A DNA stretch of 52,651 nucleotides. Source: an uncultured Zetaproteobacteria bacterium (GTDB lineage Bacteria; Pseudomonadota; Zetaproteobacteria; Mariprofundales; Mariprofundaceae). Below the pieces are notes generated by a model, which worked only from the letters and a program-made list of their open reading frames with translations, was not told the DNA's origin and did no database searches. Positions 50 through 31,038 of this stretch are shown here, one piece after another (the stretch's first letter is position 1; every line of letters starts with the position of its first letter). The stretch is taken from positions 1 to 52,651 of the forward strand of contig CAZDJY010000001.1 of assembly GCA_964505835.1 (NCBI GenBank). The letters are read 5' to 3'. The position numbers and the translations under genes are program-made.

Positions 50-183
50 CCTTGTAGTTTTTCAGTACGCCAAGGCAAAAGCGCGGGTTTTCCTTGGCTT
101 ACAAAATCAGGCACTTACGCGCATGATTTTGGCAGGCCATCCATGGCCTGTACGGATGCTCTGACTTTTTCAGAGTATCCTCA
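50..183 (-). repeat. Structured intergenic element, copy A (inverted orientation, lacks the last ~25 nt)
   Basis: The reverse complement aligns with 22394-22528 and 18062-18195 (hairpins H1-H4 and the left arm of H5). It lies downstream of the SDR gene. Confidence 0.9.
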
Positions 184-274: not shown

Positions 275-943
275 TCAGTAGGGTACGACCTGACCGTCAA
301 AGGCGATGAAGGCACCGGGATCGTAATCGCGCGCATGCTCGATCACATTGCACATACCGGCCACTGAAGTCGGCACATCAATCAGCCCTGTGCGGTGAGT
401 CATGTCCGTTTGCACCCAGCCAGGATGCAGGGTGATGACATGGATACCCTGCGGCGCAAGATCAACTGCCATCGATCTGGAGACAATGGTGAGTGCGGCC
501 TTGGCCGCCCGGTAGGCATAGGTTCCGCCGCTTGAATTATCGGTGCAGGAACCCATCTTGGAGCTGATATTGGCGATGCTACTGTTCTGATTCATGCGCC
601 CGTGCAATTGCTGTACGACACGTAGCGGCCCGACGCAATCGATATTGAACACCTCATGCATGGCGGCAGATGTCACTCGGGGCAAGCTTTGGCCGTCCTT
701 GCCCGGGCCGTAGATGCCGGCATTATTGATTAACAGATCGATGTTCTCAGGCAGTTCTCCCTCAGGCTCGTCATCGGAAGCAACATCCCAGCGAATCAGC
801 TGCAGTCTCTCCGATGCGATATCTGCAAGTTCCCCCATATCGCTGCGATAGCAGGCCCATACGTTCCAACCCTGCTTGAGATAATGTCTGGCAAAACCCA
901 GCCCCATGCCGCGGTTCGCTCCGGTAATCACTACATTCATCAT
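275..943 (-). CDS. Short-chain dehydrogenase/reductase (SDR) family oxidoreductase
   Basis: Rossmann motif TGANRGMG, NNAG, and catalytic YRAAK (YxxxK). Start trimmed from 994 to the ATG cluster 943/940 just after GGAGG; the exact ATG is uncertain. Confidence 0.85.
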   Translation of the reverse strand: MMNVVITGANRGMGLGFARHYLKQGWNVWACYRSDMGELADIASERLQLIRWDVASDDEPEGELPENIDLLINNAGIYGPGKDGQSLPRVTSAAMHEVFNIDCVGPLRVVQQLHGRMNQNSSIANISSKMGSCTDNSSGGTYAYRAAKAALTIVSRSMAVDLAPQGIHVITLHPGWVQTDMTHRTGLIDVPTSVAGMCNVIEHARDYDPGAFIAFDGQVVPY

Positions 944-1029
944 GCCTCCCATGGATCGGCAAGTCGCTCGTGATTGGCCGCGACCCGCCTGCACCTGTTA
1001 CTATGCCGCTCATGATAGCCGAGCAAGCC

Positions 1030-2874: not shown

Positions 2875-3826
2875 CGCCCTGTTGGCCTGGTACAGCGATC
2901 ATGGCCGTGATCTTCCATGGCGACATACGGTTGATCCCTACCCTATCTGGATATCGGAAATCATGTTGCAGCAGACACAGGTCAAAACCGTTTTACCTCG
3001 CTATCAGGGCTGGTTTGACCGTTTCCCATCCATTAAATCTCTTGCCGATGCACCACTGGATGATGTGTTAAAGGCATGGGAGGGACTTGGCTATTATCGC
3101 CGTGCCCGATTTATCCATAGCGCAGCGCAACAGATCATCACCGAGCACGCGGGTATCTTCCCAAAGGATTTCGATGAAATCCTGCGACTTCCCGGCATCG
3201 GACGTTCGACGGCTGGAGCGATTGCATCGTTTTGTTTCGCAGCTTTAGCCCCCGTGCTGGATGGCAATGTGAAGCGGGTGCTTAAGCGTTGGCAGGGCAA
3301 TCTTCATGCCACAGACAAACAGCTCTGGTTGGCGGCGCAGGAAGCGATTAATGCATCCGGCGATGCAGCAAGCTGGAATCAGGCGATGATGGAGCTGGGA
3401 GCTACGATTTGCAGCCCAAAGCGGCCTGATTGCGCTACATGTCCGGTCGAATCTTTCTGCAAGTCGGCCCACGATGTCAAAGCGGGTTCAGAGCGTCGGA
3501 AGTCCGTGCCGGTGCATGATGTGCATTGGCGGGTTGATCTGCATGTTTGTCCCAGGCGGGGGATATGGCTGGTACAGCGCCCCGAGAAGGGCATATGGGC
3601 AGGTTTGTGGACCCCTCCGATGACCAAGCTGGATGCAGTGCCAGATGCGACACCTACCCATATCCATCTGTTAACACACCGCCGTCTGCATCTGTACGTC
3701 GAACGTAGCGATGCGACGCCTGGCGGAGCCGGCCAATGGGTTGCCGATATCGACGATATGGCACTGCCCACTGGCATCCATCGCTTACTGGAAAAGGACG
3801 CAATATCCTATCCATTCATACCCTGA
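2834..3826 (+). CDS. mutY: A/G-specific adenine DNA glycosylase
   Basis: WYSDHGRDLPWR, EIMLQQTQV, HhH-GPD LPGIGRSTAGAI, Fe-S loop CSPKRPDCATCPVESFC, and a C-terminal NUDIX-like domain. Start is a TTG (2834, 2855 or 2882) and is uncertain. Confidence 0.9.
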   Translation: MRWSRIVLSSARCSALLAWYSDHGRDLPWRHTVDPYPIWISEIMLQQTQVKTVLPRYQGWFDRFPSIKSLADAPLDDVLKAWEGLGYYRRARFIHSAAQQIITEHAGIFPKDFDEILRLPGIGRSTAGAIASFCFAALAPVLDGNVKRVLKRWQGNLHATDKQLWLAAQEAINASGDAASWNQAMMELGATICSPKRPDCATCPVESFCKSAHDVKAGSERRKSVPVHDVHWRVDLHVCPRRGIWLVQRPEKGIWAGLWTPPMTKLDAVPDATPTHIHLLTHRRLHLYVERSDATPGGAGQWVADIDDMALPTGIHRLLEKDAISYPFIP

Positions 3827-4297: not shown

Positions 4298-5950
4298 ATG
4301 ACGACACACAGCACCCGTAAAACCATGACGGCCAGTATGATATGCTTGTTACTCCTACTGCTGATCCCGTGGCCGGCATTTTCGGCCCCTCTGAAAGGTA
4401 TGGTGGTGGCAGCCCATCCATTGGCTGCCGAGGCCGGAGCGGCAATGCTCAACAAGGGCGGCAATGCCTTCGATGCAGCTGCAGCTACGGCGCTGGCATT
4501 GGGTGTGGTTGAGCCTGGCTCGTCCGGCATCGGCGGCGGTGGGTTTTTTCTATTGTATATCGCCAAACAGGATCGTTATGTGATGCTGGATGCGAGGGAA
4601 ACAGCCCCCCAACTGGCTGGTCACGGCGAGGTTTATCAGGCGCAATCGAGCATTGACGGCCCCCAGACCGCGGGAGTACCGGGGCTGGCTGCCGGCGTGG
4701 ATCGGCTGGTGAGCCGATATGGAAAGTTGAAACGTGCTGACATCACTGCTCCGTCCTTGCGGCTGGCCAAAGACGGATTTGCCGTCAGCGACAGGCTGGG
4801 GGGCATGATCCGCTGGCGTGGCAAGGTGTTCAGCGATGCGGCACGGCGCATCTTCGACCAGTCTCGAGGTGCGATCATCCGCCAGCCCGCGCTGGCTGAC
4901 ACATTGAACCGGTTTGCCAGCAAAGGAGCGGAAGATTTCTATCGTGGCGAAACCGCCGGGCGACTGGTGGCTGATATGCAGCGTGATGGCGGCCTGATCC
5001 GTCTGGCTGATCTGGCCAGCTATAAGGTGCGCGAACGCGAGCCGATAGAGTTCGACTATCAAGGCTATCATTTCGTATCGGCGGCGCTTCCCTCATCAGG
5101 TGGTATGACCCTGGCGCATATCTTCGGTCAGCTGAAGGGCGACGATCTGAAATCCCTCGCGCCCGTTGATCGGGTGCATTTGCTGATCGAGGCCATGCAG
5201 CGCGCCTACCGGGATCGCAACCAGTATCTGGGTGATGCGGATTTCACCCCCATCCCGAAGGATTATCTCGATCCGCTTCGGCTAAAGAAACTGCGCGACT
5301 CGATCGATATGCAGCATGCCACGCCGTCAAACAAGCTGACCGGCTTTGCCGAGCCGATCGGTGCGAGTGTGGATACCACACATTTTTCCATCATCGATAA
5401 GGATGGGAATATGGTCGCGGCTACATTGTCGATCAATTACGGCTTCGGTTCGGGCTATGTGTCCCCCAGCACCGGAATTTTATTGAATGATGAAATGGAT
5501 GATTTTGCCACCAAACCGGGTGAGCCGAACGCCTATGGCCTGGTGCAGGGCAAGGCCAATGCCGTGGCACCGGGCAAGCGTATGCTATCGAGCATGACGC
5601 CGACCTTCGTGCTCGGCCCAGACCGCACATTGATTGTGGGTACGCCGGGAGGCTCGCGCATCATTTCGATGGTGCTGCTGGCCAGTGTCGGCTTCATGCT
5701 CGATGAAACCCCGCCGGACAACTGGGTTAATGCGGCGCGTTTCCATCATCAGTTTCTGCCTGATGTCGTACAGCATGAACAAGGCGCTTTTTCTGCCGAA
5801 CTCGCCGCTGAGTTGAAAAAGCGCGGCCATGTTCTGAAACAAATGAATCGTCAATACGGCAACATGCAGGCGATTCTTGTTGAAAAGGAGCGTGGCAAGC
5901 TGACCGGTATGGTCGATGCGCGTGGCGAGGGTGCTGTAGCGCAACCATGA
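4298..5950 (+). CDS. ggt: Gamma-glutamyltransferase
   Basis: Signal peptide (MICLLLLLLIPWPAFSAP), autoprocessing Thr in VDTTHFSIIDKDGN, and GGSRIIS near the C-terminus. ATG 4298 lies 1 nt after the upstream stop. Confidence 0.9.
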   Translation: MTTHSTRKTMTASMICLLLLLLIPWPAFSAPLKGMVVAAHPLAAEAGAAMLNKGGNAFDAAAATALALGVVEPGSSGIGGGGFFLLYIAKQDRYVMLDARETAPQLAGHGEVYQAQSSIDGPQTAGVPGLAAGVDRLVSRYGKLKRADITAPSLRLAKDGFAVSDRLGGMIRWRGKVFSDAARRIFDQSRGAIIRQPALADTLNRFASKGAEDFYRGETAGRLVADMQRDGGLIRLADLASYKVREREPIEFDYQGYHFVSAALPSSGGMTLAHIFGQLKGDDLKSLAPVDRVHLLIEAMQRAYRDRNQYLGDADFTPIPKDYLDPLRLKKLRDSIDMQHATPSNKLTGFAEPIGASVDTTHFSIIDKDGNMVAATLSINYGFGSGYVSPSTGILLNDEMDDFATKPGEPNAYGLVQGKANAVAPGKRMLSSMTPTFVLGPDRTLIVGTPGGSRIISMVLLASVGFMLDETPPDNWVNAARFHHQFLPDVVQHEQGAFSAELAAELKKRGHVLKQMNRQYGNMQAILVEKERGKLTGMVDARGEGAVAQP

Positions 5951-6336
5951 CAACATGGATTGATCTCATGCGCAAACACTGGCTGCCGACCAGTGCCGTC
6001 CTGCTTGCTGCAATCACTGCATTGTCGCTTTGGCCGCTGGAGCATCTGCCTCCGGTGCCGGGTGGCGACAAGCTGCATCATGCCATTGCCTATGCCGTGC
6101 TTATGTTTCCTGCAGCTCTTCGCAGGCCGCGGCACCTGTGGGCGATCTTTCTCTTTTATCTAGCCTGGAGCGGCTGCATCGAGCTGATTCAACCTTATGT
6201 GCAACGCTATGGCGAATGGCTGGATCTTGCCGCCAATACTGCCGGCCTTAGCCTGAGTTGGTTGCTGGTTTCGCTGATTTCAACAAAGCTCAGATGCGGG
6301 CCTATCCCTGAAGGGCCAGCCAGGCCCAAATGCTGA
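5947..6336 (+). CDS. VanZ-like membrane protein
   Basis: Four hydrophobic segments, DKLHHAIAY and ELIQ motifs typical of the VanZ family. ATGA overlap with the ggt stop. Confidence 0.6.
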   Translation: MTTWIDLMRKHWLPTSAVLLAAITALSLWPLEHLPPVPGGDKLHHAIAYAVLMFPAALRRPRHLWAIFLFYLAWSGCIELIQPYVQRYGEWLDLAANTAGLSLSWLLVSLISTKLRCGPIPEGPARPKC

Positions 6337-12196: not shown

Positions 12197-12817
12197 CTAT
12201 GCTTGCGGAAGATTCAAGTTAAGCCGCCATGCCAACAGGCGTATGGCGGTGGTGAGCAGCATGACAGACCAGATAATCGGGCCTCCTGCAACATTCAGTT
12301 CACTGAGCGCCAAATAGGTCAGTGCTCCAACGAGGCTTGCCGAGGCATAGATCTCTTTCTTCAGGATGAACGGCACCTCGGCAACCAGCATGGCCCGCAG
12401 TACACCGCCGCCGGTGGCAGTGAGCATGGCAATGAACAGGATGCCGATACTGCCGAGCCCGGCCTGATCGCCCACCCAGGCGCCGACCAGCGTGAATACG
12501 CCGAGGCCGAGCGCATCAAAGCCGATCAACCAGCTTTCCTGCTCACGGATGGTTCGGCCCCAGAAAAAAGCGGCCATGCCGACAACAACTGCGATGATAA
12601 GATAGGTCTGGTCGGCAAAGGCGGCTGGCGGGTGACGGCCGATCAGGGCATCGCGCATCATGCCACCACCCATGGCGGTGACGACAGCCAGCACGACCGC
12701 CCCCATCAGATCGAGCTTGTGGGTCAGAGCTCTGAGTGCACCGGTCAGGGCAAAGACAGCCGTGCCAAAGAGATCGAGAAAATGCACGGTGGGCGGCAAT
12801 GGCGTGGCTGCAATCAT
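12197..12817 (-). CDS. Trimeric intracellular cation channel (UPF0126/YadS) family protein
   Basis: Two UPF0126 repeats (FGTAVFALTGALRA...GGGMMRDAL and GLGVFTLVGAW...TATGGGVLRAML) and seven TM segments. Confidence 0.8.
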   Translation of the reverse strand: MIAATPLPPTVHFLDLFGTAVFALTGALRALTHKLDLMGAVVLAVVTAMGGGMMRDALIGRHPPAAFADQTYLIIAVVVGMAAFFWGRTIREQESWLIGFDALGLGVFTLVGAWVGDQAGLGSIGILFIAMLTATGGGVLRAMLVAEVPFILKKEIYASASLVGALTYLALSELNVAGGPIIWSVMLLTTAIRLLAWRLNLNLPQA

Positions 12818-16734: not shown

Positions 16735-16753
16735 AATGTGAAACAGTTGAACT

Positions 16754-16783
16754 TAAGAATGCTCTGAAACACTCAGAGCATCT
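16754..16783. repeat. Solo hairpin resembling hairpin H1 of the structured element
   Basis: TAAGAATGCTCTGA-AACAC-TCAGAGCAT has a perfect 9-bp stem. Compare TAAGGATGCGCTGA-AAAAG-TCAGAGCAT at 22394. Confidence 0.35.
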
Positions 16784-16810
16784 TTACGGAGAATGGATGT
16801 GACAAACTTC

Positions 16811-17533
16811 TTAGAAATTCACCACCAGTGTGATGGCAGTTTCGGTGTCCAGTTTCTTGGTACCAGTCGGCACCTTGCTGTTATGTGTAAGGCTTAAGGA
16901 AATTTTACTCGACAGATGAGAGTTCAGCGCCGTCTGCAATGCGGTGACGGATTTGCTGGTCCAGCCCTTGGCGCCGCCCTCGGTACTCAAATCTTCTGTA
17001 AGCTTGGATGATTCACTGAACTGCCAGGCGGCATTCGTGGAGGCGCGGGCAATCGCCTCTGAGGTTGATGTTTTGTCGGTCAGCTTGCTTTGACGCAGAC
17101 CGCCGCCGATCTCAGCCTTCCATTCAAAGGTATCGCTCTTGATCAGTTGCCGACCATAACCGACGGTTTCGCTGGTGCGACGCTTGAATCCGGCAAAGCG
17201 GTCGCTTTCGAAGCCGAAGCGGATGAACAGATAATCCCGCTCACTCATCTTCCAGTCTTCCTGCAGGCTGGCCTCATATTTTTCTGCCGTTGTCGCATTA
17301 TTGGCTGAAGAGTTAACGGCATTACCGGTGATGGTGGTGCGCCATGCCTCACTTTCATAAATACTCTTGGCCTTTGCGTTGACGGTCAGCGTATGCGTGT
17401 TGCCTGCAGTCTGTACGGCGCCGAGCTCGATATTGGTTTTCCATGCCTGTTCCTCGCCAGCAGGTGCTTCAGAAGCGAAAACCGGTGCGCTCAGGGCGCA
17501 AGTGCAGAGCAGGGTAATGATGAATCGGAACAT
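16811..17533 (-). CDS. DUF481 (YdiY-like) outer-membrane beta-barrel protein
   Basis: Signal peptide MFRFIITLLCTCALSAPVFA, alternating beta-strand pattern and a C-terminal ...TLVVNF. AAGGAG lies 6 nt before ATG 17533. Confidence 0.75.
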   Translation of the reverse strand: MFRFIITLLCTCALSAPVFASEAPAGEEQAWKTNIELGAVQTAGNTHTLTVNAKAKSIYESEAWRTTITGNAVNSSANNATTAEKYEASLQEDWKMSERDYLFIRFGFESDRFAGFKRRTSETVGYGRQLIKSDTFEWKAEIGGGLRQSKLTDKTSTSEAIARASTNAAWQFSESSKLTEDLSTEGGAKGWTSKSVTALQTALNSHLSSKISLSLTHNSKVPTGTKKLDTETAITLVVNF

Positions 17534-17722: not shown

Positions 17723-18064
17723 ATGCATAATGTTTCAAGACGACGGATTTCTCTACTCATGCTTGCTCCTGCGGCAGCGCTGATGTTGTTAATGGCAGCG
17801 CCGGCACAGGCTGATGAGGCCGAGCTTTCAGGTTTCGATGCCAATCATGATGGCAAGATCACCATGTCCGAGGTGATGCGCCATATCCGCCCGGCTATCC
17901 AGAGTGGCTTTGATGCGATGGATCGCAATCACGACGGTGTATTGTCCAAGGATGATTTTAACGATGTCAGCGAGGGCATGCACAAGTTTCAGCAGTGGCT
18001 CGATGAACTGCTCAGGCCGTTTATGTCATCAACCGATCGCGAGGGAAAAACGCAGGAGTTCTAG
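17723..18064 (+). CDS. Exported EF-hand calcium-binding protein
   Basis: Signal peptide ending AQA|DE and two EF-hand loops (DANHDGKITMSE, DRNHDGVLSKDD). AGGAGG lies 6 nt before ATG 17723. Confidence 0.75.
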   Translation: MHNVSRRRISLLMLAPAAALMLLMAAPAQADEAELSGFDANHDGKITMSEVMRHIRPAIQSGFDAMDRNHDGVLSKDDFNDVSEGMHKFQQWLDELLRPFMSSTDREGKTQEF

Positions 18065-18218
18065 GGATGCTTTGAAAAAGTCAGGGCTTCCGCGCAGGCC
18101 ATGGATGGCCTGCCAAAATCAAGCGCGTAAGTGCTGATTTTGTGAGTAAAGGCAAAACCGCGCTTTTGCCTTTACGTACTGAAAAACGACAAGGACGTAG
18201 TTTTTCAGACCTTCCTTA
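18062..18218 (+). repeat. Structured intergenic element, copy B (full length)
   Basis: Aligns end to end with 22394-22551. Its first triplet, TAG, is the stop codon of the EF-hand gene. Confidence 0.9.
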
Positions 18219-18242
18219 GAGCTTCCCTATGACAGGTTGATG

Positions 18243-18940: not shown

Positions 18941-19402
18941 CTATGAAGCAGCAGACTTCATATGCCGGGTCAGGAAACGGTCGAGTTGATTGGCGAAGGC
19001 GGTGCGATCGGCATTGGAAAAGGCGGCCGGCCCTCCGGTGTTAATGCCGCTGCCGCGCAGCTCGTCCATAAAATTACGCATGGTCAGGTACTGCTTCACA
19101 TTGGCTTCGGAATAGAAGGTGCCGCGCGGATTCAGCGCATGTCCCTGACCCGCGATCACATCGGCGGCGAGCGGGATATCGGCGGTAACGACCAGGTCGC
19201 CCGGCTGCATGCGCGCCACGATCTCGGTATCGGCCACATCCGCGCCGGCGGCGACTTCGAGCATATCGATGTGCGGCGATTTCGGAATGTGCAGGCGTGT
19301 GTTGGCGACCATCGTCATTTTCAGACTCGTGCGCGCCACTGCGCGAAACAGGATTTCCTTGATCACCTTCGGGCAGGCATCGGCATCGACCCAGATATGC
19401 AT
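18941..19402 (-). CDS. yaiI: YaiI/YqxD (DUF188, UPF0178) family protein
   Basis: Family-typical N-terminus MHIWVDADACPKVIKEILFRA. The ORF track's longer N-terminus (to 19525) runs through the repeat and the G10 tract, so it was trimmed. Confidence 0.8.
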   Translation of the reverse strand: MHIWVDADACPKVIKEILFRAVARTSLKMTMVANTRLHIPKSPHIDMLEVAAGADVADTEIVARMQPGDLVVTADIPLAADVIAGQGHALNPRGTFYSEANVKQYLTMRNFMDELRGSGINTGGPAAFSNADRTAFANQLDRFLTRHMKSAAS

Positions 19403-19459
19403 GGCGGAAGGCTTGCCCGATGGAGGCATGTCGTCAAACTCGGTGATATAACGGTTGCC

Positions 19460-19469
19460 GGGGGGGGGG
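19460..19469. repeat. G10 (C10 on the yaiI strand) homopolymer
   Basis: Ten consecutive G, counted directly, at the breakpoint of the truncated repeat copy. It lies 57 nt upstream of the yaiI ATG. Confidence 0.9.
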
Positions 19470-19555
19470 CTCACAAAATCAGGCACTGACGCGCATGATT
19501 TTGGCAGGCCATCCATGGCCTGCATGGATGCTCTGACTTTTTCAGATCATCCTCA
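19470..19555 (-). repeat. Structured intergenic element, copy C (first ~86 nt: hairpins H1-H3 only)
   Basis: The reverse complement aligns with 22394-22478. Its first triplet, TGA (19555-19553), is the stop codon of the DUF992 gene. Confidence 0.9.
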
Positions 19556-20047
19556 GGGGCGCGCCGGTTCAAGATAGAGATAGGTCAGCCCGAGTGTCGC
19601 GCCTGCGCCGCTATTTCGTACCGCAGTCGGTTGCAGCAAGATGCTGCGGTCGCGCTTCTGCAAAGGTGCCGAGCCTCCGGCCTGCACGCCGAGACTGGCG
19701 CCTCCGCCGGCGCCCGAATATCTGCCTGCCAGCTGTTGTGTGCCGAAGTGGAAGTGCTCAGCCGCCACGACATAAGCTACACGGCTGCGCCGGTTAATGT
19801 TCACATCCAGACCGAAGCCGATGCCGGTCTCGCCCTTGTAATATTCAATCGCATTGCCGCTCTCCGGCTTGAACGTACATGTCACCTCACGGGTCGAATG
19901 GATGAGCAGATTGATGCCGGAATCGGGAACGATCTTGCATGTCAGCATGCCCACCTTGGGCGGCGGGGCACTGATCGGATCGGCATGCGGGATACAGCCC
20001 GTACTCAGCAGCAGGATGCACAGAGTCGCGATGACCGGATACCGCAT
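19553..20047 (-). CDS. DUF992-like lipoprotein
   Basis: Lipobox LLSTGC and a Gly-rich C-terminal half (GAGGGASLGVQAGGSAP...GAGATLGLTYLYL) as in DUF992. AAGGAGG lies 5 nt before ATG 20047. Confidence 0.65.
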   Translation of the reverse strand: MRYPVIATLCILLLSTGCIPHADPISAPPPKVGMLTCKIVPDSGINLLIHSTREVTCTFKPESGNAIEYYKGETGIGFGLDVNINRRSRVAYVVAAEHFHFGTQQLAGRYSGAGGGASLGVQAGGSAPLQKRDRSILLQPTAVRNSGAGATLGLTYLYLEPARP

Positions 20048-20209
20048 GTTTACCTCCTTGTGTTCATCATCAGCATAGACCATCTCGCAGCGCTACGTAT
20101 ACCGTTTGAGTAAGGTCGCTTCGGGCAGGCTGCTTCTGACAGAGTTTGATGTAAGTTCATTCGCCGTTTCCTGACTGACGGGCATGGAGCATCGAATGAG
20201 GGCGCGCCT

Positions 20210-22295: not shown

Positions 22296-22393
22296 GCATG
22301 CCCTCCTGTTGCTCAACTCCTGCGACACAGCCCCTGTCGCCACGAAGGAATAAAAAAAGCTTTAATCCTTCGCATCCTTCGCGGTAAAATCGT

Positions 22394-22551
22394 TAAGGAT
22401 GCGCTGAAAAAGTCAGAGCATCCGTGCAGGCCATGGATGGCCTGCCAAAATCAAGCGCGTAAGTGCCTGATTTTGTGAGCAAAGGCAAAACCGCGCTTTT
22501 GCCTTTGCGTACTAAAAAACTACAAGGGCGTAGTTTTTTAGACCTTCCTTA
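22394..22551 (+). repeat. Structured intergenic element, copy D (full length, reference copy)
   Basis: Five hairpins: 22397-22423, 22426-22445, 22446-22475, 22479-22508 and 22514-22539. The last triplet, TTA, is the nrdJa stop codon on the opposite strand. Confidence 0.9.
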
Positions 22552-24729
22552 AAACTTACCGTAATACCCTTCCTTCAGAGCATCGAACAGGTTGGCCGCG
22601 GTATGCATTTCGCCATCGTACTCGACCTCTTCGTTGCCTTTCAGTTCCATTGTGCTGCCATCCTCGAGCTTGAAGCGGTAGGTCGTATTGGCCAGATCCT
22701 CTTCCTTAACCAGTACGCCCTGGAATGCCTCGGGATTGAAGCGGAAAGTGGTACAACCCTTCAGGCCCTGCTCGTAGGCATAAAGATAGATGTCCTTGAA
22801 ATCCTCGTACGGGAAATCGGTTGGCACGTTGGCGGTCTTGGAGATGGACGAATCCACCCAGCGCTGGGCCGCAGCCTGGATATCGACATGCTGCTTCGGC
22901 GTCACCTCGTCGGCGCTGATAAAATACTCCGGCAGCTTGATCGCATCGTCCTCGGCGAACGGCATCGCATCCGGGTTAATCAGCTCACGGTAGGCCAGCA
23001 GTTCGAAGGAGAACACGTCCACCTTCTCCTTGCTCTTCTTGCCCTCGCGGATGACGTTGCGGGCATAATGATGCGCAAAGCTCGGCTCGATGCCGTTGGA
23101 AGCATTGTTCGCCAGACTTAATGAAATGGTGCCGGTCGGGGCGATGGAGGAATGATGTGTGAAGCGGCAGCCCTTCTCGATCAGCGCATTGAGCAGTGCA
23201 GCATCTTCCGGTTTGCCGGTCTCGGCGAACTTTTTCATGTAGCGCGAATATTTGCCCCACAGCACACGTCCGCTGACCTTGTCGCCGAGGCTGATGCCAT
23301 CAGCGGCCAGTTCCGGACGCTTGGCCAGCATCTCGGCGGTGACTTCATATTCCTTGTCCAACGCCGGCGCGACACCCTTCTCCTCGCCCAGTTCCAGGCC
23401 GACCTTGAAGCCGGTGCGCGCCATCTCGTAGGCGATCTGCTCGGTGAATTCGAGTGATTCCGGCGAGCCGTAGGGCGTGCGCAGCATGGTCAGGGCGCTG
23501 CCGAGGCCGAGGAAACCCATGCCATGGCGGCGTTTGCTCATGATCTCGTCGCGTTGTTTGCCCAGCGGCAGGCCATTGATCTCGACGACATTATCAAGCA
23601 TGCGGGTGAACACGGACACCACCTCGCGATAGGCATCCCAGTCGAACCATACGTCTTTGGTGAACGGATCGCGTACAAACTTGGTCAGGTTGACACTTCC
23701 CAGCAGGCAGGCGCCGTAGGGCGGCAGCGGTTGTTCGCCGCAAGGATTCGTGGCGCGTACATTCTCGCAGAACCAGTTATTGTTCATGTCGTTGACTTCA
23801 TCAATCAGGATGAAGCCCGGCTCGGCGTAATCGTAGGTCGAGGCCATGATGACATCCCATAGCCGGCGCGCCTTCATGGTCTTGTAGACGCGGCAGGCGG
23901 TCAGACCGCGATCATCGTGAATTGAGCCCTTGGGCGGGTTAGCGACATGTTTGAAGACGATGCGGGTATCCTCGTCGTCCATCTCCGTCTGACTGGCCGG
24001 AAAGACCAGATCCCAGTCGCTATCGTGCTTGACCGCTTCCATGAAATCGCGGGTGATCAGGCAGGATAGATTGAACTGGCGCAGACGCCCGTCCTCGCGC
24101 TTGGCACGGATGAAATCGATAATGTCCGGATGCGAGATGTCGAAGGTGCCCATCTGTGCGCCGCGGCGGCCGCCAGCGCTGGACACGGTGAAGCACATCT
24201 TGTCGTAGATATCCATGAACGACAGCGGCCCGGAGGTGTAGGCGCCGGCGCCGGATACATAAGCACCCTTCGGACGCAGGGTGGAGAACTCGTAGCCGAT
24301 GCCGCAGCCCGCCTTCAGAGTCAGGCCTGCCTCGTGCACCATGGACAGGATGCCGTCCATCGAATCGGGGATGGTGCCGGAGACGGTACAGTTGATCGTC
24401 GAGGTAGCCGGCTTGTGCGCTTCGGCTCCGGCATTGGACATGATGCGACCGGCCGGGATGGCGCCGTTGGCCAGCGCCCAGACGAAGCGATTATGCCAGA
24501 ACTCGCGCTTTTCCTCATCCTCGACCGCTGCCAATGCGGTAGCGACACGGTCGTAGGTGGCCTGAATGTCGGCATCGACGCTATGGCCGAACTTGTCCTT
24601 CAGACGATATTTCTTGTCCCAGATATCCAGAGATGCTTCCTGGAATGGAATATCGGCGACACTGGTGTGTGCGGTATCCGGCTGTTCGTTGATGGCAGCG
24701 ACGTTCGTGGCCTGTGTGGTTGCGCTCAT
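22549..24729 (-). CDS. nrdJa: Adenosylcobalamin-dependent (class II) ribonucleotide reductase, large piece
   Basis: Active-site loop RATNPCGEQPLPPYGACLLGS, SSIAPTGTISL and GCGIGYEFSTLRPKG. At 726 aa it lacks the C-terminal TSCPD/Cys-tail region, which is encoded separately. Confidence 0.9.
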   Translation of the reverse strand: MSATTQATNVAAINEQPDTAHTSVADIPFQEASLDIWDKKYRLKDKFGHSVDADIQATYDRVATALAAVEDEEKREFWHNRFVWALANGAIPAGRIMSNAGAEAHKPATSTINCTVSGTIPDSMDGILSMVHEAGLTLKAGCGIGYEFSTLRPKGAYVSGAGAYTSGPLSFMDIYDKMCFTVSSAGGRRGAQMGTFDISHPDIIDFIRAKREDGRLRQFNLSCLITRDFMEAVKHDSDWDLVFPASQTEMDDEDTRIVFKHVANPPKGSIHDDRGLTACRVYKTMKARRLWDVIMASTYDYAEPGFILIDEVNDMNNNWFCENVRATNPCGEQPLPPYGACLLGSVNLTKFVRDPFTKDVWFDWDAYREVVSVFTRMLDNVVEINGLPLGKQRDEIMSKRRHGMGFLGLGSALTMLRTPYGSPESLEFTEQIAYEMARTGFKVGLELGEEKGVAPALDKEYEVTAEMLAKRPELAADGISLGDKVSGRVLWGKYSRYMKKFAETGKPEDAALLNALIEKGCRFTHHSSIAPTGTISLSLANNASNGIEPSFAHHYARNVIREGKKSKEKVDVFSFELLAYRELINPDAMPFAEDDAIKLPEYFISADEVTPKQHVDIQAAAQRWVDSSISKTANVPTDFPYEDFKDIYLYAYEQGLKGCTTFRFNPEAFQGVLVKEEDLANTTYRFKLEDGSTMELKGNEEVEYDGEMHTAANLFDALKEGYYGKF

Positions 24730-29496: not shown

Positions 29497-29521
29497 ATCT
29501 GACTTAAGCTGATTTTTTTCT

Positions 29522-29583
29522 GCCGAGGGGCGCTGCAACCGAAAGGTCAGGCTCGGCACCTATACCTGTTTCAACGGCGCCCG
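29522..29583 (+). promoter_or_regulatory. SAH (S-adenosylhomocysteine) riboswitch aptamer upstream of ahcY
   Basis: GCCGAGGGGCGCUGCAACC-GAAA-GGUCAGGCUCGGC...CAACGGCGCCC matches the remembered SAH_riboswitch core (CCGAGGrGCGcUGCrAC ... CAGGCUCGG ... AACGGCGCyC). P1 is CCGAG/CUCGG, P2 is ACC-GAAA-GGU, and the pseudoknot is GGCGC/GCGCC. A CGTTTATT...AATAAACG hairpin abuts the GGAGG SD. Confidence 0.8.
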
Positions 29584-29625
29584 TTTATTGTGTATGCATT
29601 GCACATGGAATAAACGGAGGTTGAA

Positions 29626-31038
29626 ATGAGTGCTGTAGAACAATCCAATAATGAATCCATCGTTGCCGATATGTCGCTGGCCGACTGGGGGCGCAAGGAA
29701 CTGCGTATCGCGGAGACGGAGATGCCTGGCCTGATGGCAATTCGCAAGAAGTATGCTGATGAGCAGCCGCTCAAGGGCGCGCGTATCGCAGGTTCCCTAC
29801 ATATGACCATCCAGACTGGCGTTTTGATTGAAACGCTGACTGCGCTGGGGGCGGAGGTGCGTTGGGCCTCCTGCAATATCTTTTCCACACAGGATCACGC
29901 CGCTGCGGCTATTGCTGCCGAGGACGTGCCGGTGTTCGCATTCAAGGGCGAGAGCCTGGATGAGTACTGGGAGTTTTCTCACCGCATCATGGAGTGGCAC
30001 GATGGCGGCACGCCGAACATGATTCTTGATGATGGCGGCGATGCGACATTGCTGGTGATTCTGGGATCTAAGGCGGAGCAGGATTTGTCCGTGCTCGACA
30101 ATCCGACCAGTGAGGAAGAAGTGGCACTGTTTAATGCTATTCGCAACAAGCTGGCCGAAAACCCGACCTGGTATTCCGAACGTAAGGCTGCAATCAAGGG
30201 TGTGACCGAAGAAACGACCACGGGTGTGCATCGTTTGTATCAGATGCAGGAGAAGGGTGAGTTGCCGTTCCCTGCAATTAATGTGAATGATTCGGTGACC
30301 AAGTCCAAGTTTGACAATCTCTACGGTTGCCGTGAATCCCTGCTCGACGGCATCAAGCGTGCGACCGATGTGATGGTGGCCGGTAAAATCTGCGTGGTGC
30401 TCGGCTATGGTGATGTCGGCAAGGGTTGCGCACAGGCATTCAAGGGCATGGGGGCGACCGTATGGGTGACTGAAATCGATCCGATCTGCGCACTGCAGGC
30501 TGCGATGGAAGGTTATCGCGTGGTGAATATGGATGAGGCCTGCAAGCTGGGTAATATCTTCGTGACCACGACGGGTAACTATCATGTCATTACGCATGAC
30601 CATATGGTCGCCATGCCGGATGAGGCGATTGTCTGCAATATCGGTCATTTCGATAACGAGATTGATTGCGCAAGTCTCAAGCAGTACGAATGGGAAAATG
30701 TTAAACCGCAGGTCGATCAGATTATCTTCCCGGATGGCAAGCGCATGACGCTGCTGGCTGAAGGCCGTTTGGTAAATCTCGGTTGTGCTACAGGTCATCC
30801 GAGCTTTGTGATGTCCAACTCATTTTCCAACCAGACTCTGGCCCAGATCGAGCTGTTCAATCAGACCGGTCAGTACAAGAATGAGGTCTATACCCTGCCC
30901 AAGAAGCTGGATGAGGAAGTGGCCCGTCTGCACTTGGCCAAGATTGGCGTGCAGTTGACCGAGCTTTCAAAAGAGCAGGCCGACTATATCGGTGTGCCAG
31001 TCGCGGGCCCGTACAAGCCGAACCATTACCGTTATTGA
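29626..31038 (+). CDS. ahcY: Adenosylhomocysteinase
   Basis: [26 protein letters not shown] site GYGDVGKG, and a C-terminal ...YKPNHYRY. Confidence 0.95.

What the first reader, a model, noticed from the sequence alone, without database searches (positions are those of the whole stretch)
22394..22551. Four-copy ~157-bp intergenic element that folds into five consecutive hairpins, with compensatory base-pair changes between copies
The copies are at 18062-18218 (+, full), 22394-22551 (+, full), 50-183 (-, lacks the last ~25 nt) and 19470-19555 (-, first ~86 nt only). The two full copies align end to end with scattered substitutions and a single 1-nt indel.

In the 22394 copy nearly every base sits in a stem-loop:
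- H1: 22397-22407 / 22413-22423
- H2: 22426-22432 / 22439-22445
- H3: 22446-22453 / 22468-22475
- H4: 22479-22490 / 22497-22508 (12 perfect bp)
- H5: 22514-22523 / 22530-22539

Several differences between copies preserve pairing. H4 pair 2 is C-G at 22480/22507 but T-A in the 18062 copy. H4 pair 3 is A-T in both full copies but C-G in the 50-183 copy. The outer H5 pair is A-T at 22514/22539 but G-C at 18181/18206. This argues the fold itself (RNA or single-stranded DNA) is under selection, rather than the copies being only recent duplicates.

H5 is flanked by an A-run and a T-run, so it resembles a bidirectional intrinsic terminator. Three of the four copies lie downstream of a co-oriented gene. 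No transposase, REP-associated tyrosine transposase or integrase gene is in the window. I do not recognise the element as a known RNA family.
Basis: partly seen in the sequence, partly recalled or inferred. Interest (0 to 1): 0.72.

Follow-up and report, generated by a model that had tools for sequence, protein, structure and literature searches.

The report
Hairpin-rich miniature transposon at stop codons
The four repeats are copies of a ~152-bp non-coding mobile element (a MITE with IS5-type ends) that has landed at or next to the stop codons of genes in a Mariprofundus-like iron-oxidising bacterium; its five hairpins really are conserved, and two of them carry loops that look like CsrA binding sites, a role that is untested.

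Summary
There are four copies (88-94% identical).

The element is a MITE.
- It has ~20-nt imperfect terminal inverted repeats (GGAWNSTCTGAAAAA; 10/12 identical to the start of the E. coli IS5 end).
- It is flanked by 4-nt direct repeats that differ between copies (TTAA, TTAG, CTAA, CTAG). This matches the YTAR target duplication of IS5.
- Three of three window copies tested are absent from the orthologous site in close relatives.
- The insertions sit on stop codons, which the duplication regenerates.
- No transposase is in the window, and the cognate one was not found.

Relatives from other Mariprofundaceae and from a Xanthomonadales-like gammaproteobacterium keep all five hairpins with largely different stem sequences (45 of 57 pairs have two-sided changes). 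H2 and H5 keep GGA loops of the CsrA-site type.

What the structure does is not shown. The candidates are an RNA 3'-end structure, CsrA binding, or a role in transposition.

Verdict: a new member of a known kind, with an unusual conserved interior.

The parts
22393..22396 (+). Copy b, left target-site duplication TTAA
   Evidence: Read from the sequence. It is identical to the right-hand TTAA. The relative L007 has a single TTAA at the empty site.
22397..22548 (+). Copy b, full element core (152 nt). It is anti-oriented to both flanking genes (class II RNR and the TSCPD gene, both on the - strand).
   Evidence: CM score 187.6 bits. Five-hairpin MFE fold with z = -8.2. Gene context.
22397..22416 (+). 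Copy b, 5' terminal inverted repeat GGATGCGCTGAAAAAGTCAG. It is also the 5' arm and loop of H1.
   Evidence: 13/20 match to the reverse complement of the 3' end in this copy; 14-16/20 in most other full copies.
22529..22548 (+). Copy b, 3' terminal inverted repeat (reverse complement GGAAGGTCTAAAAAACTACG). It is also the 3' arm of H5.
   Evidence: In copy a the first 12 nt of this end (GGAAGGTCTGAA) match the E. coli IS5A end GGAAGGTGCGAA at 10/12; in copy b (GGAAGGTCTAAA) at 9/12. The IS5A end was read from NC_000913.
22426..22445 (+). H2 hairpin GCAGGCCA-UGGA-UGGCCUGC, with a GGA in the tetraloop (22434-22437).
   Evidence: Fold. Invariant in every member retrieved, but it was the search anchor. 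Two unanchored variants keep the loop and change the stem: L133 GCGGCCCA-CGGA-UGGGCCGC and L135 CCACACA-UGGA-UGUGUGG.
22512..22541 (+). H5 hairpin (12 bp, A-run/T-run stem). The loop at 22524-22529 is AAGGGC in this copy and AAGGAC in copy a.
   Evidence: Fold. A GGA is present in the H5 loop in 17 of 20 members that have an H5. The terminator scan does not call it.
22549..22552 (+). Copy b, right target-site duplication TTAA. Positions 22549-22551 are the TAA stop codon of the RNR gene on the - strand.
   Evidence: The ORF 22549..24729 (-) carries RNR domains. Sequence read.
18061..18064 (+). Copy a, left flank CTAG. Positions 18062-18064 are the TAG stop of the EF-hand gene.
   Evidence: The relative L133 has a single CTAG at the empty site.
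18065..18215 (+). Copy a, full element core (151 nt), co-oriented with the EF-hand gene upstream.
   Evidence: CM score 176.5 bits. Absent from the orthologous site in L133.
18216..18219 (+). Copy a, right flank TTAG (3/4 match to the left flank CTAG).
50..180 (-). Copy c, truncated at the 3' end inside the H5 loop. The loop sequence AAGGAG is followed by AAAACATG, which looks like the ribosome-binding site and start of the next gene on the - strand.
   Evidence: The 5' flank is CTGA (reverse complement of 181-184). Upstream gene adh_short 275..994 (-).
19468..19552 (-). Copy d, containing H1-H3 only (85 nt). It lies between the DUF992 and DUF188 genes and is followed by a run of C.
   Evidence: L133 has CCCCTGA|TCCGCCGG at this site with no element.
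19553..19556 (-). Copy d, 5' flank CTGA. Positions 19553-19555 (reverse complement) are the TGA stop of the DUF992 gene.
   Evidence: ORF 19553..20083 (-) matches PF06186.
16753..16810 (+). Decayed older copy: an H1-like palindrome TTAA|GAATGCTCTGAAACACTCAGAGCATC|TTTA plus an H2 remnant AATGGATG. It abuts the stop of the DUF481 gene (16811-16813, - strand).
   Evidence: nhmmer and CM hits. It aligns with a ~95-nt short element at the same place in L133, 5663-5760.

Best explanation
The element is a non-autonomous DNA transposon (a MITE) of about 152 bp.

**Shown**
- It has ~20-nt imperfect terminal inverted repeats (consensus GGAWNSTCTGAAAAA).
- It is flanked by 4-nt direct repeats whose sequence differs from copy to copy (TTAA, TTAG, CTAA, CTAG).
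- It lies in either orientation.
- It is missing from the same sites in close relatives.
- The TA-containing target is often the stop codon of a gene. The duplication puts a stop codon at both ends of the insert, so the gene stays intact.
- The interior is not neutral filler. Five serial hairpins persist, with compensatory changes, across Mariprofundaceae and in at least one Xanthomonadales-like gammaproteobacterium. The loops of H2 and H5 keep a GGA.

**Inferred**
- A DDE transposase of the IS5 family, encoded elsewhere in the genome, cuts and pastes the element at YTAR sites.
- When a neighbouring gene is transcribed, the element becomes a structured 3' UTR or intergenic RNA. The hairpins may be retained because they make insertions tolerable or useful, for example by protecting or insulating the 3' end.
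- A less likely possibility is that H2 and H5 present a pair of CsrA-type binding sites.
- The two truncated copies lie inside co-directional gene pairs and lack H5 or H4-H5. This fits selection against the distal hairpins within operons.
For: **Inverted repeats.** 13-16 of 20 positions match in most full copies. The 3' end of copy a, GGAAGGTCTGAA, matches the IS5A end GGAAGGTGCGAA read from E. coli K-12 at 10/12.

**Flanking 4-mers.** They match as direct repeats at 38/48 positions against 24/48 as inverted repeats. Five pairs are exact: TTAA, TTAG twice, CTAA and CTTG. The TSD motif of IS5 is YTAR (PMC5009759).

**Empty orthologous sites.**
- Site b: L007 (RNR 90% identical) reads GTTTTAAGTGC; the window reads GTT|TTAA|[element]|TTAA|CG.
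- Sites a and d: the syntenic contig L133 (DUF188 90% identical) reads GCCGG|CTAG|AACG and CCCCTGA|TCCGCC with no element.

**Shared ends, different cargo.** A second element in L013 (3362-3492) has the same ends but a different interior, and is flanked by CTTG/CTTG.

**Stop codons.** Junctions coincide with the stops of RNR, the EF-hand gene and DUF992 in the window, and of 100-190-codon ORFs in L005, L014 and L042.

**Density.** The window holds four copies in 52.6 kb. About 122 kb of unanchored Mariprofundaceae loci hold no full copy, only partial or decayed modules.

**Structure conservation.**, plus independent single-sequence folds of distant members.

**GGA loops.** Present in the H5 loop in 17/20 members, and in every distinct lineage seen.
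Against: - No cognate transposase was found in the window or in any held locus (tblastn with IS5 InsH1). The IS5-family assignment therefore rests on ends and target only.
- The inverted repeats are short and imperfect.
- Because both flanks follow YTAR, some exact matches are expected by chance (my estimate is about 1 in 4).
- Copies c and d have no 3' end, so no duplication can be checked for them.
- Next to site b the window carries about 95 nt of further hairpin sequence that L007 lacks, so that comparison is not a clean one-event difference.
- The ends of the most distant members (L011, L017, L108) could not be resolved into inverted repeats.
- Five conserved local hairpins are not what a DDE transposase is known to need, so the MITE label does not explain the interior.
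Confidence: 0.85

Rival explanations
1. The element is mainly a structured regulatory RNA: a CsrA/RsmA-binding module. H2 and H5 present two GGA loops to one CsrA dimer. In 3' UTRs or as a processed fragment it would titrate or recruit CsrA. This is compatible with spread as a MITE; it is a rival only as the reason the structure is kept.
For: - The H2 loop context CAUGGAUG, and the H5 contexts ACAAGGACGU, ACAUGGACGU, ACAGGGAUGU, CAGGAUG and CAGGACG, fit the CsrA/RsmE site consensus as I recall it: (A/U)CANGGANG(U/A) and CAGGA(U/A/C)G, with the GGA in a hairpin loop.
- The GGA is kept in H5 in 17/20 members and in all lineages, while the stems change completely.
- H2 variants found without the search anchor change the stem but keep the GGA loop.
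- CsrA sites are GGA hairpins that come in pairs (PMC4333381; PMC4383904).
- A csrA gene is reported in M. ferrooxydans PV-1 (PMC8250860).
- Many other metagenome hits to the H2 18-mer are RNAs carrying several GGA hairpins, and one locus holds a TwoAYGGAY (RF01731) match.
Against: - There are only two or three GGA motifs per element, against 5-22 in known sponge RNAs.
- No conserved promoter exists; sequence upstream of the copies is unrelated.
- At least four copies are antisense to the surrounding transcription (w22394, L004, L005, L058).
- Copy b itself has GGG rather than GGA in H5, as does L042; L002 also lacks the GGA.
- No Rfam Csr/Rsm family scores on the element; the best is TwoAYGGAY at 15.6 bits, E = 9.4.
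- Binding was not tested.
- H2 invariance is built in by the search pattern.
Confidence: 0.2
2. The hairpins are REP/BIME-like palindromic units spread by a REP-associated tyrosine transposase (RAYT), or by recombination, and assembled into mosaics. On this view it is not a DDE-type MITE.
For: Single modules occur on their own or in other combinations in relatives: solo H1 at L008 793-822, H4-like at L010 8883-8932, H3+H4 at L008 2253-2304, and H4'+H5 at L008 15148-15218. This resembles mosaic elements.
Against: - Full copies have inverted-repeat ends and variable 4-nt direct repeats, which REP/REPIN elements do not produce.
- Whole-element presence/absence is seen at three sites.
- No Y1 transposase domain appears in the window ORFs scanned.
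- The solo modules can be explained as decayed copies; the 16753-16810 remnant is orthologous to a fuller copy in L133.
Confidence: 0.05
3. The structure is not selected. The copies are young duplicates, and the compensatory changes arise from mutational correction of quasi-palindromes (template switching within a hairpin) or from sampling.
For: - Template-switch correction of imperfect palindromes is an established mutational process (my knowledge).
- Both strands fold equally well.
- Wobble-pair asymmetry is not significant when counted by position: 23 pairs with G-U against 18 with A-C.
Against: - All five hairpins, in the same order and with similar spacing, persist where stem sequences are almost wholly replaced, in hosts of different classes.
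- Specific loop triplets (GGA) are kept while stems change, which palindrome correction does not predict.
- Window copies differ by 6-12%, so they are not very young.
Confidence: 0.05
4. The element is an intrinsic (bidirectional) transcription terminator cassette, and that is its function.
For: - H5 in Mariprofundaceae copies has an A run before and a T run after a short stem.
- Full copies sit at gene ends.
- Both truncated copies, inside co-directional gene pairs, lack a complete H5.
Against: - The inner stem of H5 has only 2 G-C pairs, and the scan does not call it.
- Copy b lies between RNR and the TSCPD gene, which are adjacent and co-directional in all relatives.
- Distant members have no T run after H5.
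- Four other conserved hairpins are left unexplained.
Confidence: 0.1

Closest known systems
MITEs derived from IS5-family insertion sequences (IS5: ends GGAAGGTGCGAA..., 4-bp YTAR target duplication)
   Same: - Small and non-coding.
- Terminal inverted repeats that start GGAAGGT at one end.
- 4-nt TA-containing direct repeats of the form YTAR.
- Multiple dispersed copies in both orientations.
- Present or absent between close relatives.
   Different: - No parent IS or transposase has been identified.
- The two ends match each other only at 13-16 of 20 positions.
- The interior is not a simple deletion remnant. It is a conserved set of five local hairpins, and each terminal repeat pairs with an internal complement (H1, H5) rather than with the other end.
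Correia elements (CREE/NEMIS) of Neisseria
   Same: - About 100-155-bp MITEs with TA-containing target duplications.
- Inserted next to genes and co-transcribed with them.
- They form RNA hairpins that affect mRNA processing and termination (my knowledge).
   Different: - Correia elements have 26-bp inverted repeats that pair with each other into one long hairpin.
- They duplicate TA only.
- They carry an IHF site.
- There is no sequence similarity, and Correia elements have no GGA-loop hairpins.
BOX elements of Streptococcus pneumoniae and BIME/REP mosaics of enterobacteria
   Same: - Modular intergenic repeats built from several short palindromic units.
- Units also occur in other combinations.
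- They form stable RNA structures at the 3' ends of genes.
   Different: - Those families have no terminal inverted repeats and no target-site duplications.
- REPs are mobilised by RAYT tyrosine transposases.
- Here whole-element insertion with a 4-nt duplication is seen.
Csr/Rsm sponge RNAs and the TwoAYGGAY motif (RF01731)
   Same: Hairpins with GGA (AYGGAY-like: AUGGAU, AUGGAC) in the loop, occurring as a pair. TwoAYGGAY was predicted to bind CsrA on the same grounds (PMC4333381).
   Different: - Those are single-copy sRNA genes with their own promoter and terminator, and usually many more GGA sites.
- This element is a multi-copy mobile repeat without a promoter.
- It scores far below threshold on every Rfam model.

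Membership tests
[quoted passage not shown] | Short (under about 500 bp) and without coding capacity | tested here: met
   The core is 151-153 nt in 9 full copies. The only ORF is a 9-codon frame in H2-H3 that is not conserved in relatives (read from the alignments).
[quoted passage not shown] | Terminal inverted repeats | tested here: met
   13-16 of 20 terminal positions match between the two ends in most copies. L116 has a different but again inverted pair (16/19 by eye).
[quoted passage not shown] | Target-site duplication whose sequence varies with the insertion site | tested here: met
   Flanking 4-mers match as direct repeats at 38/48 positions against 24/48 as inverted repeats. Exact pairs are TTAA, TTAG (twice), CTAA and CTTG. 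The sample is small and both flanks share the YTAR consensus.
[quoted passage not shown] | Insertion polymorphism: filled and empty orthologous sites | tested here: met
   Sites a and d are empty in L133, and site b is empty in L007, L008 and L009. An older decayed copy is shared by the window and L133.
[quoted passage not shown] | A related autonomous element with the same ends that encodes the transposase | tested here: not met
   None was found in the window or in about 0.9 Mb of held loci. Whole genomes could not be scanned, so absence is not shown.
IS5 family (as source of the ends) | Ends resembling GGAAGGTGCGAA | tested here: inconclusive
   The 3' end GGAAGGTCTGAA matches at 10/12; the 5' end GGATGCTCTGAA matches at 7/12. 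The comparison is with IS5A read from NC_000913.
IS5 family (as source of the ends) | 4-bp duplication of a YTAR target | tested here: met
   The flanks are TTAA, TTAG, CTAA and CTAG in Mariprofundaceae copies. The YTAR motif is documented in PMC5009759. Exceptions are CTGA (copies c, d) and CTTG (L013).
IS5 family (as source of the ends) | DDE transposase of the DDE_Tnp_1 type | not testable with these tools
REP/REPIN elements with RAYT | Single 20-40-nt imperfect palindromes (or inverted pairs) without target duplication, with a RAYT gene flanked by them | tested here: not met
   The element has inverted-repeat ends and 4-nt duplications. No Y1 transposase domain is in the window ORFs scanned.
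Csr/Rsm-type CsrA-sequestering sRNA (including TwoAYGGAY) | Several GGA motifs in hairpin loops or single-stranded stretches | tested here: inconclusive
   Two loops (H2, H5) plus one GGA inside the H1 stem. The H5 GGA is kept in 17/20 members. This is fewer than in CsrB or RsmY/Z and equal to TwoAYGGAY.
Csr/Rsm-type CsrA-sequestering sRNA (including TwoAYGGAY) | Independent gene with a conserved promoter and terminator, in one orientation | tested here: not met
   Upstream sequences are unrelated between copies. The element starts at the upstream gene's stop codon in two of the four window copies (a and d). At least four copies are antisense to their neighbours.
Csr/Rsm-type CsrA-sequestering sRNA (including TwoAYGGAY) | Match to an Rfam model of the clan | tested here: not met
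   There is no hit at gathering score. TwoAYGGAY scores 15.6 bits against a threshold of 43, E = 9.4, and the match does not cover H2.
Csr/Rsm-type CsrA-sequestering sRNA (including TwoAYGGAY) | Binding of CsrA | not testable with these tools
   This needs gel shift, ITC or CLIP. csrA is reported in M. ferrooxydans PV-1 (PMC8250860), but none is present in the held loci.
Intrinsic terminator | G+C-rich stem followed by a T run | tested here: not met
   H5 is not called by the scan. The inner stem has 2 G-C pairs, and the T run pairs with the A run. Distant members lack the T run.

The most novel reading that the evidence does not exclude
A family of mobile elements spreads a ready-made pair of CsrA-binding hairpins (H2 and H5, GGA loops held in a conserved five-hairpin scaffold) into the 3' ends of genes in Zetaproteobacteria and Xanthomonadales-like bacteria. 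Transposition would then add transcripts to the CsrA network, or the copies would together act as a dispersed CsrA sponge. No Csr/Rsm antagonist RNA is known to me in these groups.
Probability: 0.15. Interest if true: 0.75.

Novelty: new member of a known kind. Interest (0 to 1): 0.4.

Why it matters
**Ordinary part.** Bacterial MITEs are well known, and this one explains the repeats, their position on stop codons and an annotation error. NCBI calls the DUF188 gene as 194 aa because the ORF runs into copy d; its homologues are about 153 aa.

**Less ordinary part.** The cargo is what stands out. Five local hairpins are kept by compensatory change across bacterial classes. Each terminal repeat is folded against an internal complement. 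Two loops keep a GGA of the CsrA-site type.

**If the structure acts at the RNA level.** The family would be a case of a transposon spreading a defined post-transcriptional module. It would also offer candidate CsrA partners in lineages where none is described.

**Practical use.** The covariance model can mask these repeats in Zetaproteobacteria MAGs and flag mis-called gene ends.

Tried and rejected
- **Rfam.** At gathering score over the whole window the only hit is the SAH riboswitch. In E-value mode on the element there are only chance-level hits.
- **BLASTN of the element against plasmids.** No match.
- **Viral-contig scan with the H2 18-mer.** One hit, inside a coding-like region and unrelated.
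- **Look-ups of the window's own proteins** (EF-hand, RNR, DUF188) in the assembly index: not on record, so the source assembly could not be named or extended.
- **tblastn with CsrA proteins** against all held loci: nothing.
- **tblastn with IS5 InsH1:** no relative next to any copy.
- **Regex search for paired ends 0.8-1.6 kb apart** in held loci: only MITE-sized pairs.
- **Strand assignment from wobble pairs.** By cells, 59 G-U against 26 A-C. By pair positions, only 23 against 18. Most of the excess is inherited, so I treat it as inconclusive.
- **Simple fold-energy ranking of the 120 metagenome hits** did not separate family members from chance hits. The covariance model did.
- **Integron attC sites, retron ncRNA, IS200/IS605 or IS110 guide RNAs.** Considered and dropped. 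There is no associated integrase, RT, TnpB or recombinase gene nearby, and there are inverted-repeat ends with a duplication.
- **Small ORF in H2-H3 (MDGLPKSSA).** Considered and dropped, because the frame is not conserved.
Full report
**1.

The repeat finder returns the four copies at the stated places, 87-94% identical to one another; a MAFFT alignment shows them in register. The 22394-22551 copy folds into five serial hairpins at -75 kcal/mol, against -42.3 +/- 4.0 for shuffles (z = -8.2). The complementary strand folds just as well (z = -9.3). Rfam has no family for the element.

**2. Source and context.**

The window is a whole 52,651-nt NCBI contig. Its class II ribonucleotide reductase is 90% identical to that of a JGI Mariprofundaceae contig and about 85% identical to named Mariprofundus species.

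| Copy | Position | Context |
|---|---|---|
| a | 18065-18215 (+) | Starts right after the TAG stop of an EF-hand gene |
| d | 19552-19468 (-) | Starts right after the TGA stop of a DUF992 gene; followed by a DUF188 gene |
| b | 22397-22548 (+) | Between the RNR gene and a TSCPD gene, both on the - strand, so it is antisense to both; the RNR stop TAA is the reverse complement of 22549-22551, directly at its 3' end |
| c | 180-50 (-) | Follows a short-chain dehydrogenase gene; ends inside H5, where AAGGAGAAAACATG looks like the ribosome-binding site and start of the next gene |

Pfam scans of about 40 of 51 window ORFs show housekeeping genes and no transposase, integrase or Y1 transposase.

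**3. It is a mobile element with inverted ends and a target duplication.**

*Ends.* The two ends of a full copy are inverted repeats. For example, 5' GGATGCTCTGAAAAAGTCAG compares with the reverse complement of the 3' end, GGAAGGTCTGAAAAACTACG. Across copies 13-16 of 20 positions match.

*Flanks.* Directly outside the ends are 4-nt direct repeats that differ from copy to copy:
- TTAA/TTAA (copy b)
- TTAG/TTAG (L005, L042)
- CTAA/CTAA (L029)
- CTTG/CTTG (L013)
- CTAG/TTAG (copy a)

Over 12 elements they match at 38/48 positions as direct repeats, against 24/48 as inverted repeats (copy a was mis-anchored by the script and was read by hand).

*Empty sites.* Orthologous sites in close relatives lack the element.
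- L007 reads GTTTTAAGTGC where the window reads GTT-TTAA-[element]-TTAA-CG.
- The syntenic contig L133 reads GCCGG-CTAG-AACG and CCCCTGA-TCCGCC where the window carries copies a and d.
- So three of three copies tested are insertions specific to this lineage.

*Age.* A fifth, decayed copy at 16753-16810 is shared with L133, which has a ~95-nt short form at the same place. The family has therefore been active for some time.

*Shared ends.* In L013 a second element (3362-3492) has the same ends and a CTTG/CTTG flank but a different interior. This is what one expects if the ends are the part recognised for mobilisation.

**4. Which transposase.**

The IS5A ends read from E. coli K-12 are GGAAGGTGCGAATAAG and GGAAGGTGCGAACAAG. 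The 3' end of copy a, GGAAGGTCTGAA, matches at 10/12. IS5 duplicates a 4-bp YTAR target (PMC5009759), and the flanks here are TTAA, TTAG, CTAA and CTAG. This points to an IS5-family DDE transposase acting in trans. That step is an inference, because no such gene was found in the window or in about 0.9 Mb of related loci, and whole genomes could not be scanned.

**5. Why stop codons.**

YTAR contains TAA or TAG. In a coding-dense genome, insertions that survive are those that do not break genes. A 4-nt duplication of a target that overlaps a stop codon leaves the stop intact.

The junction coincides with the stop of a long ORF in copies a, b and d. The same is true in L005, L014 and L042, where the ORFs are 104-190 codons long. 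That insertion is at YTAR is shown; that selection then filters the survivors is inferred.

**6. The interior is conserved as structure.**

*How relatives were found.* A genome scan with the H2-H3 core found one copy in each of six species genomes: five Mariprofundaceae or Zetaproteobacteria, and one MAG labelled uncultured Pseudomonadales. Most of those hits are unrelated, but it brought in five more close copies and several very distant ones.

*Distant members.* A covariance model built from 10 copies scores the distant members at 60-124 bits, against about 22 bits for H2 alone. L013, L014, L116, L011, L017 and L108 each fold on their own into the same five hairpins in the same order, with almost entirely different stem sequences.

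*Counts.*

| Alignment | Cells paired | Shuffles | Slid partners | Pairs with two-sided changes |
|---|---|---|---|---|
| 21 members, fitted to the model | 92.5% | 75.7% | 31-41% | 45 of 57; no shuffle of 500 reaches any observed measure |
| 10 members, sequence-only MAFFT | 92.6% | 86.0% | 31-45% | 17 of 57, against 7.5 +/- 1.9 in shuffles (0/500) |

*Host range.* The host of L014 has an M1 peptidase about 68% identical to those of Luteimonas, Lysobacter and Pseudoxanthomonas. The family therefore reaches a Xanthomonadales-like gammaproteobacterium.

*Caveats.*
- All relatives were fished with the exact H2 sequence, so H2 invariance is by construction.
- Two clear H2 variants were found without the anchor. 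Both change the stem and keep the loop: L133 GCGGCCCA-CGGA-UGGGCCGC and L135 CCACACA-UGGA-UGUGUGG. A third, degenerate H2 in the L133 short element also keeps GGA.
- The sequences are related, so shuffle counts are not probabilities.
- Template-switch correction of quasi-palindromes (established knowledge) can create compensatory changes without selection.

**7. Loops and a possible CsrA link.**

H2 has the loop context CAUGGAUG. H5 has ACAAGGACGU, ACAUGGACGU, ACAGGGAUGU, CCAGGAUGG, CACAGGACGUG, GCAGGACAGC or CGCAGGAGCG. A GGA is present in the H5 loop in 17 of 20 members and in every distinct lineage, whereas the loops of H1, H3 and H4 share no such triplet.

GGA in a hairpin loop, occurring in pairs, is the described CsrA-binding motif (PMC4333381; PMC4383904). 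From memory, these contexts also fit the RsmE/CsrA consensus (A/U)CANGGANG(U/A) and the CsrB repeat CAGGA(U/A/C)G. A csrA gene is reported in M. ferrooxydans (PMC8250860).

Several points count against a dedicated sponge RNA:
- There are only two loop sites.
- There is no conserved promoter.
- Orientation is mixed: antisense in copy b, L004, L005 and L058.
- The GGA is lost in copy b, L042 and L002.
- There is no Rfam support.

I rate this reading at about 0.15-0.2.

**8. Terminator idea.**

H5 in Mariprofundaceae copies has A and T runs, but these pair with each other. The inner stem has two G-C pairs and the scan does not call it. Distant members lack the T run.

The two truncated copies lie within co-directional gene pairs and lack H5 or H4-H5. 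That is compatible with the distal hairpins being polar, but two cases are too few to show it.

**9. RNA or DNA.**

Both strands fold equally well. G-U pairs outnumber A-C mismatches by cells (59 against 26), but by pair positions the count is 23 against 18. The strand and the molecule under selection are therefore undecided.

One feature I cannot explain: each terminal repeat is folded against an internal complement (H1 and H5) instead of pairing with the other end.

**10. Verdict.**

The repeats are a new MITE family with IS5-type ends and target. That is a known kind of element, and it accounts for the copies, their orientations, their truncations and their position on stop codons. What the five-hairpin cargo does remains open.

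Noticed in passing
window 18941-19525 (-): The database copy of the window's DUF188 (YaiI) protein is 194 aa (P0121), whereas homologues are about 150-155 aa. The extra N-terminus comes from reading into truncated copy d, so the gene start is probably mis-called.
   Followed up: partly
window 29519-29589 (+): An SAH riboswitch (RF01057, 52.2 bits) lies directly upstream of the S-adenosylhomocysteine hydrolase gene (29626-31038). This is the usual arrangement.
   Followed up: no
window 22297-22392: Between copy b and the conserved small ORF downstream of RNR are about 95 nt of further hairpins that L007 lacks. They include CGAAGGA...TCCTTCG and GGCGACAGGGGCTGTGTCGC. The latter has a covarying counterpart, GGCGACACCTCCTGTGTCGC, at the same place in M. 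ferrinatatus (L010, about 12260-12290). The spacer seems to be a hot spot for palindromic inserts.
   Followed up: partly
L097, L119, L015, L080, L056, L120, L032, L055, L089, L122, L099 (metagenome loci): Many G+C-rich contigs that share the H2 18-mer carry RNAs or repeats with several GGA-loop hairpins (GGCAGGGAUGCC, CGGCCAUGGAGGGCCG, CGCCAUGGAUGGCG) and shared blocks such as CCGAGAAGCGCAGGG. L122 also has a TwoAYGGAY match at 5908-6026 (-). These look like uncharacterised Csr/Rsm-type RNAs or GGA-hairpin repeats in unknown hosts.
   Followed up: partly
L013 3362-3492: A second MITE has the same terminal repeats as the five-hairpin element but a single long internal hairpin. It is flanked by CTTG/CTTG.
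   Followed up: partly
L007 14425-18816: The closest relative carries a Tn7-like module (TnsA-like, an rve/Mu-type transposase, TniB, TniQ) downstream of the TSCPD gene, where the window has other genes. Synteny breaks there.
   Followed up: no
proteins P0003, P0012, P0038, P0054, P0059, P0074, P0090, P0099: Some Zetaproteobacteria RNR genes encode proteins of about 1,090-1,120 aa with intein and LAGLIDADG homing-endonuclease domains. The window's RNR (726 aa) has none.
   Followed up: no
window 19458-19467: A run of about ten C (on the element strand) sits exactly at the truncation point of copy d. The relative L133 has TCCGCCGG there.
   Followed up: no
L001 (CAZNFE010000096.1): A copy very close to copy a, sharing its 1-nt deletion in H3, lies on a contig of a MAG labelled 'uncultured Pseudomonadales'. 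This may be a binning or labelling error, or a transfer.
   Followed up: no
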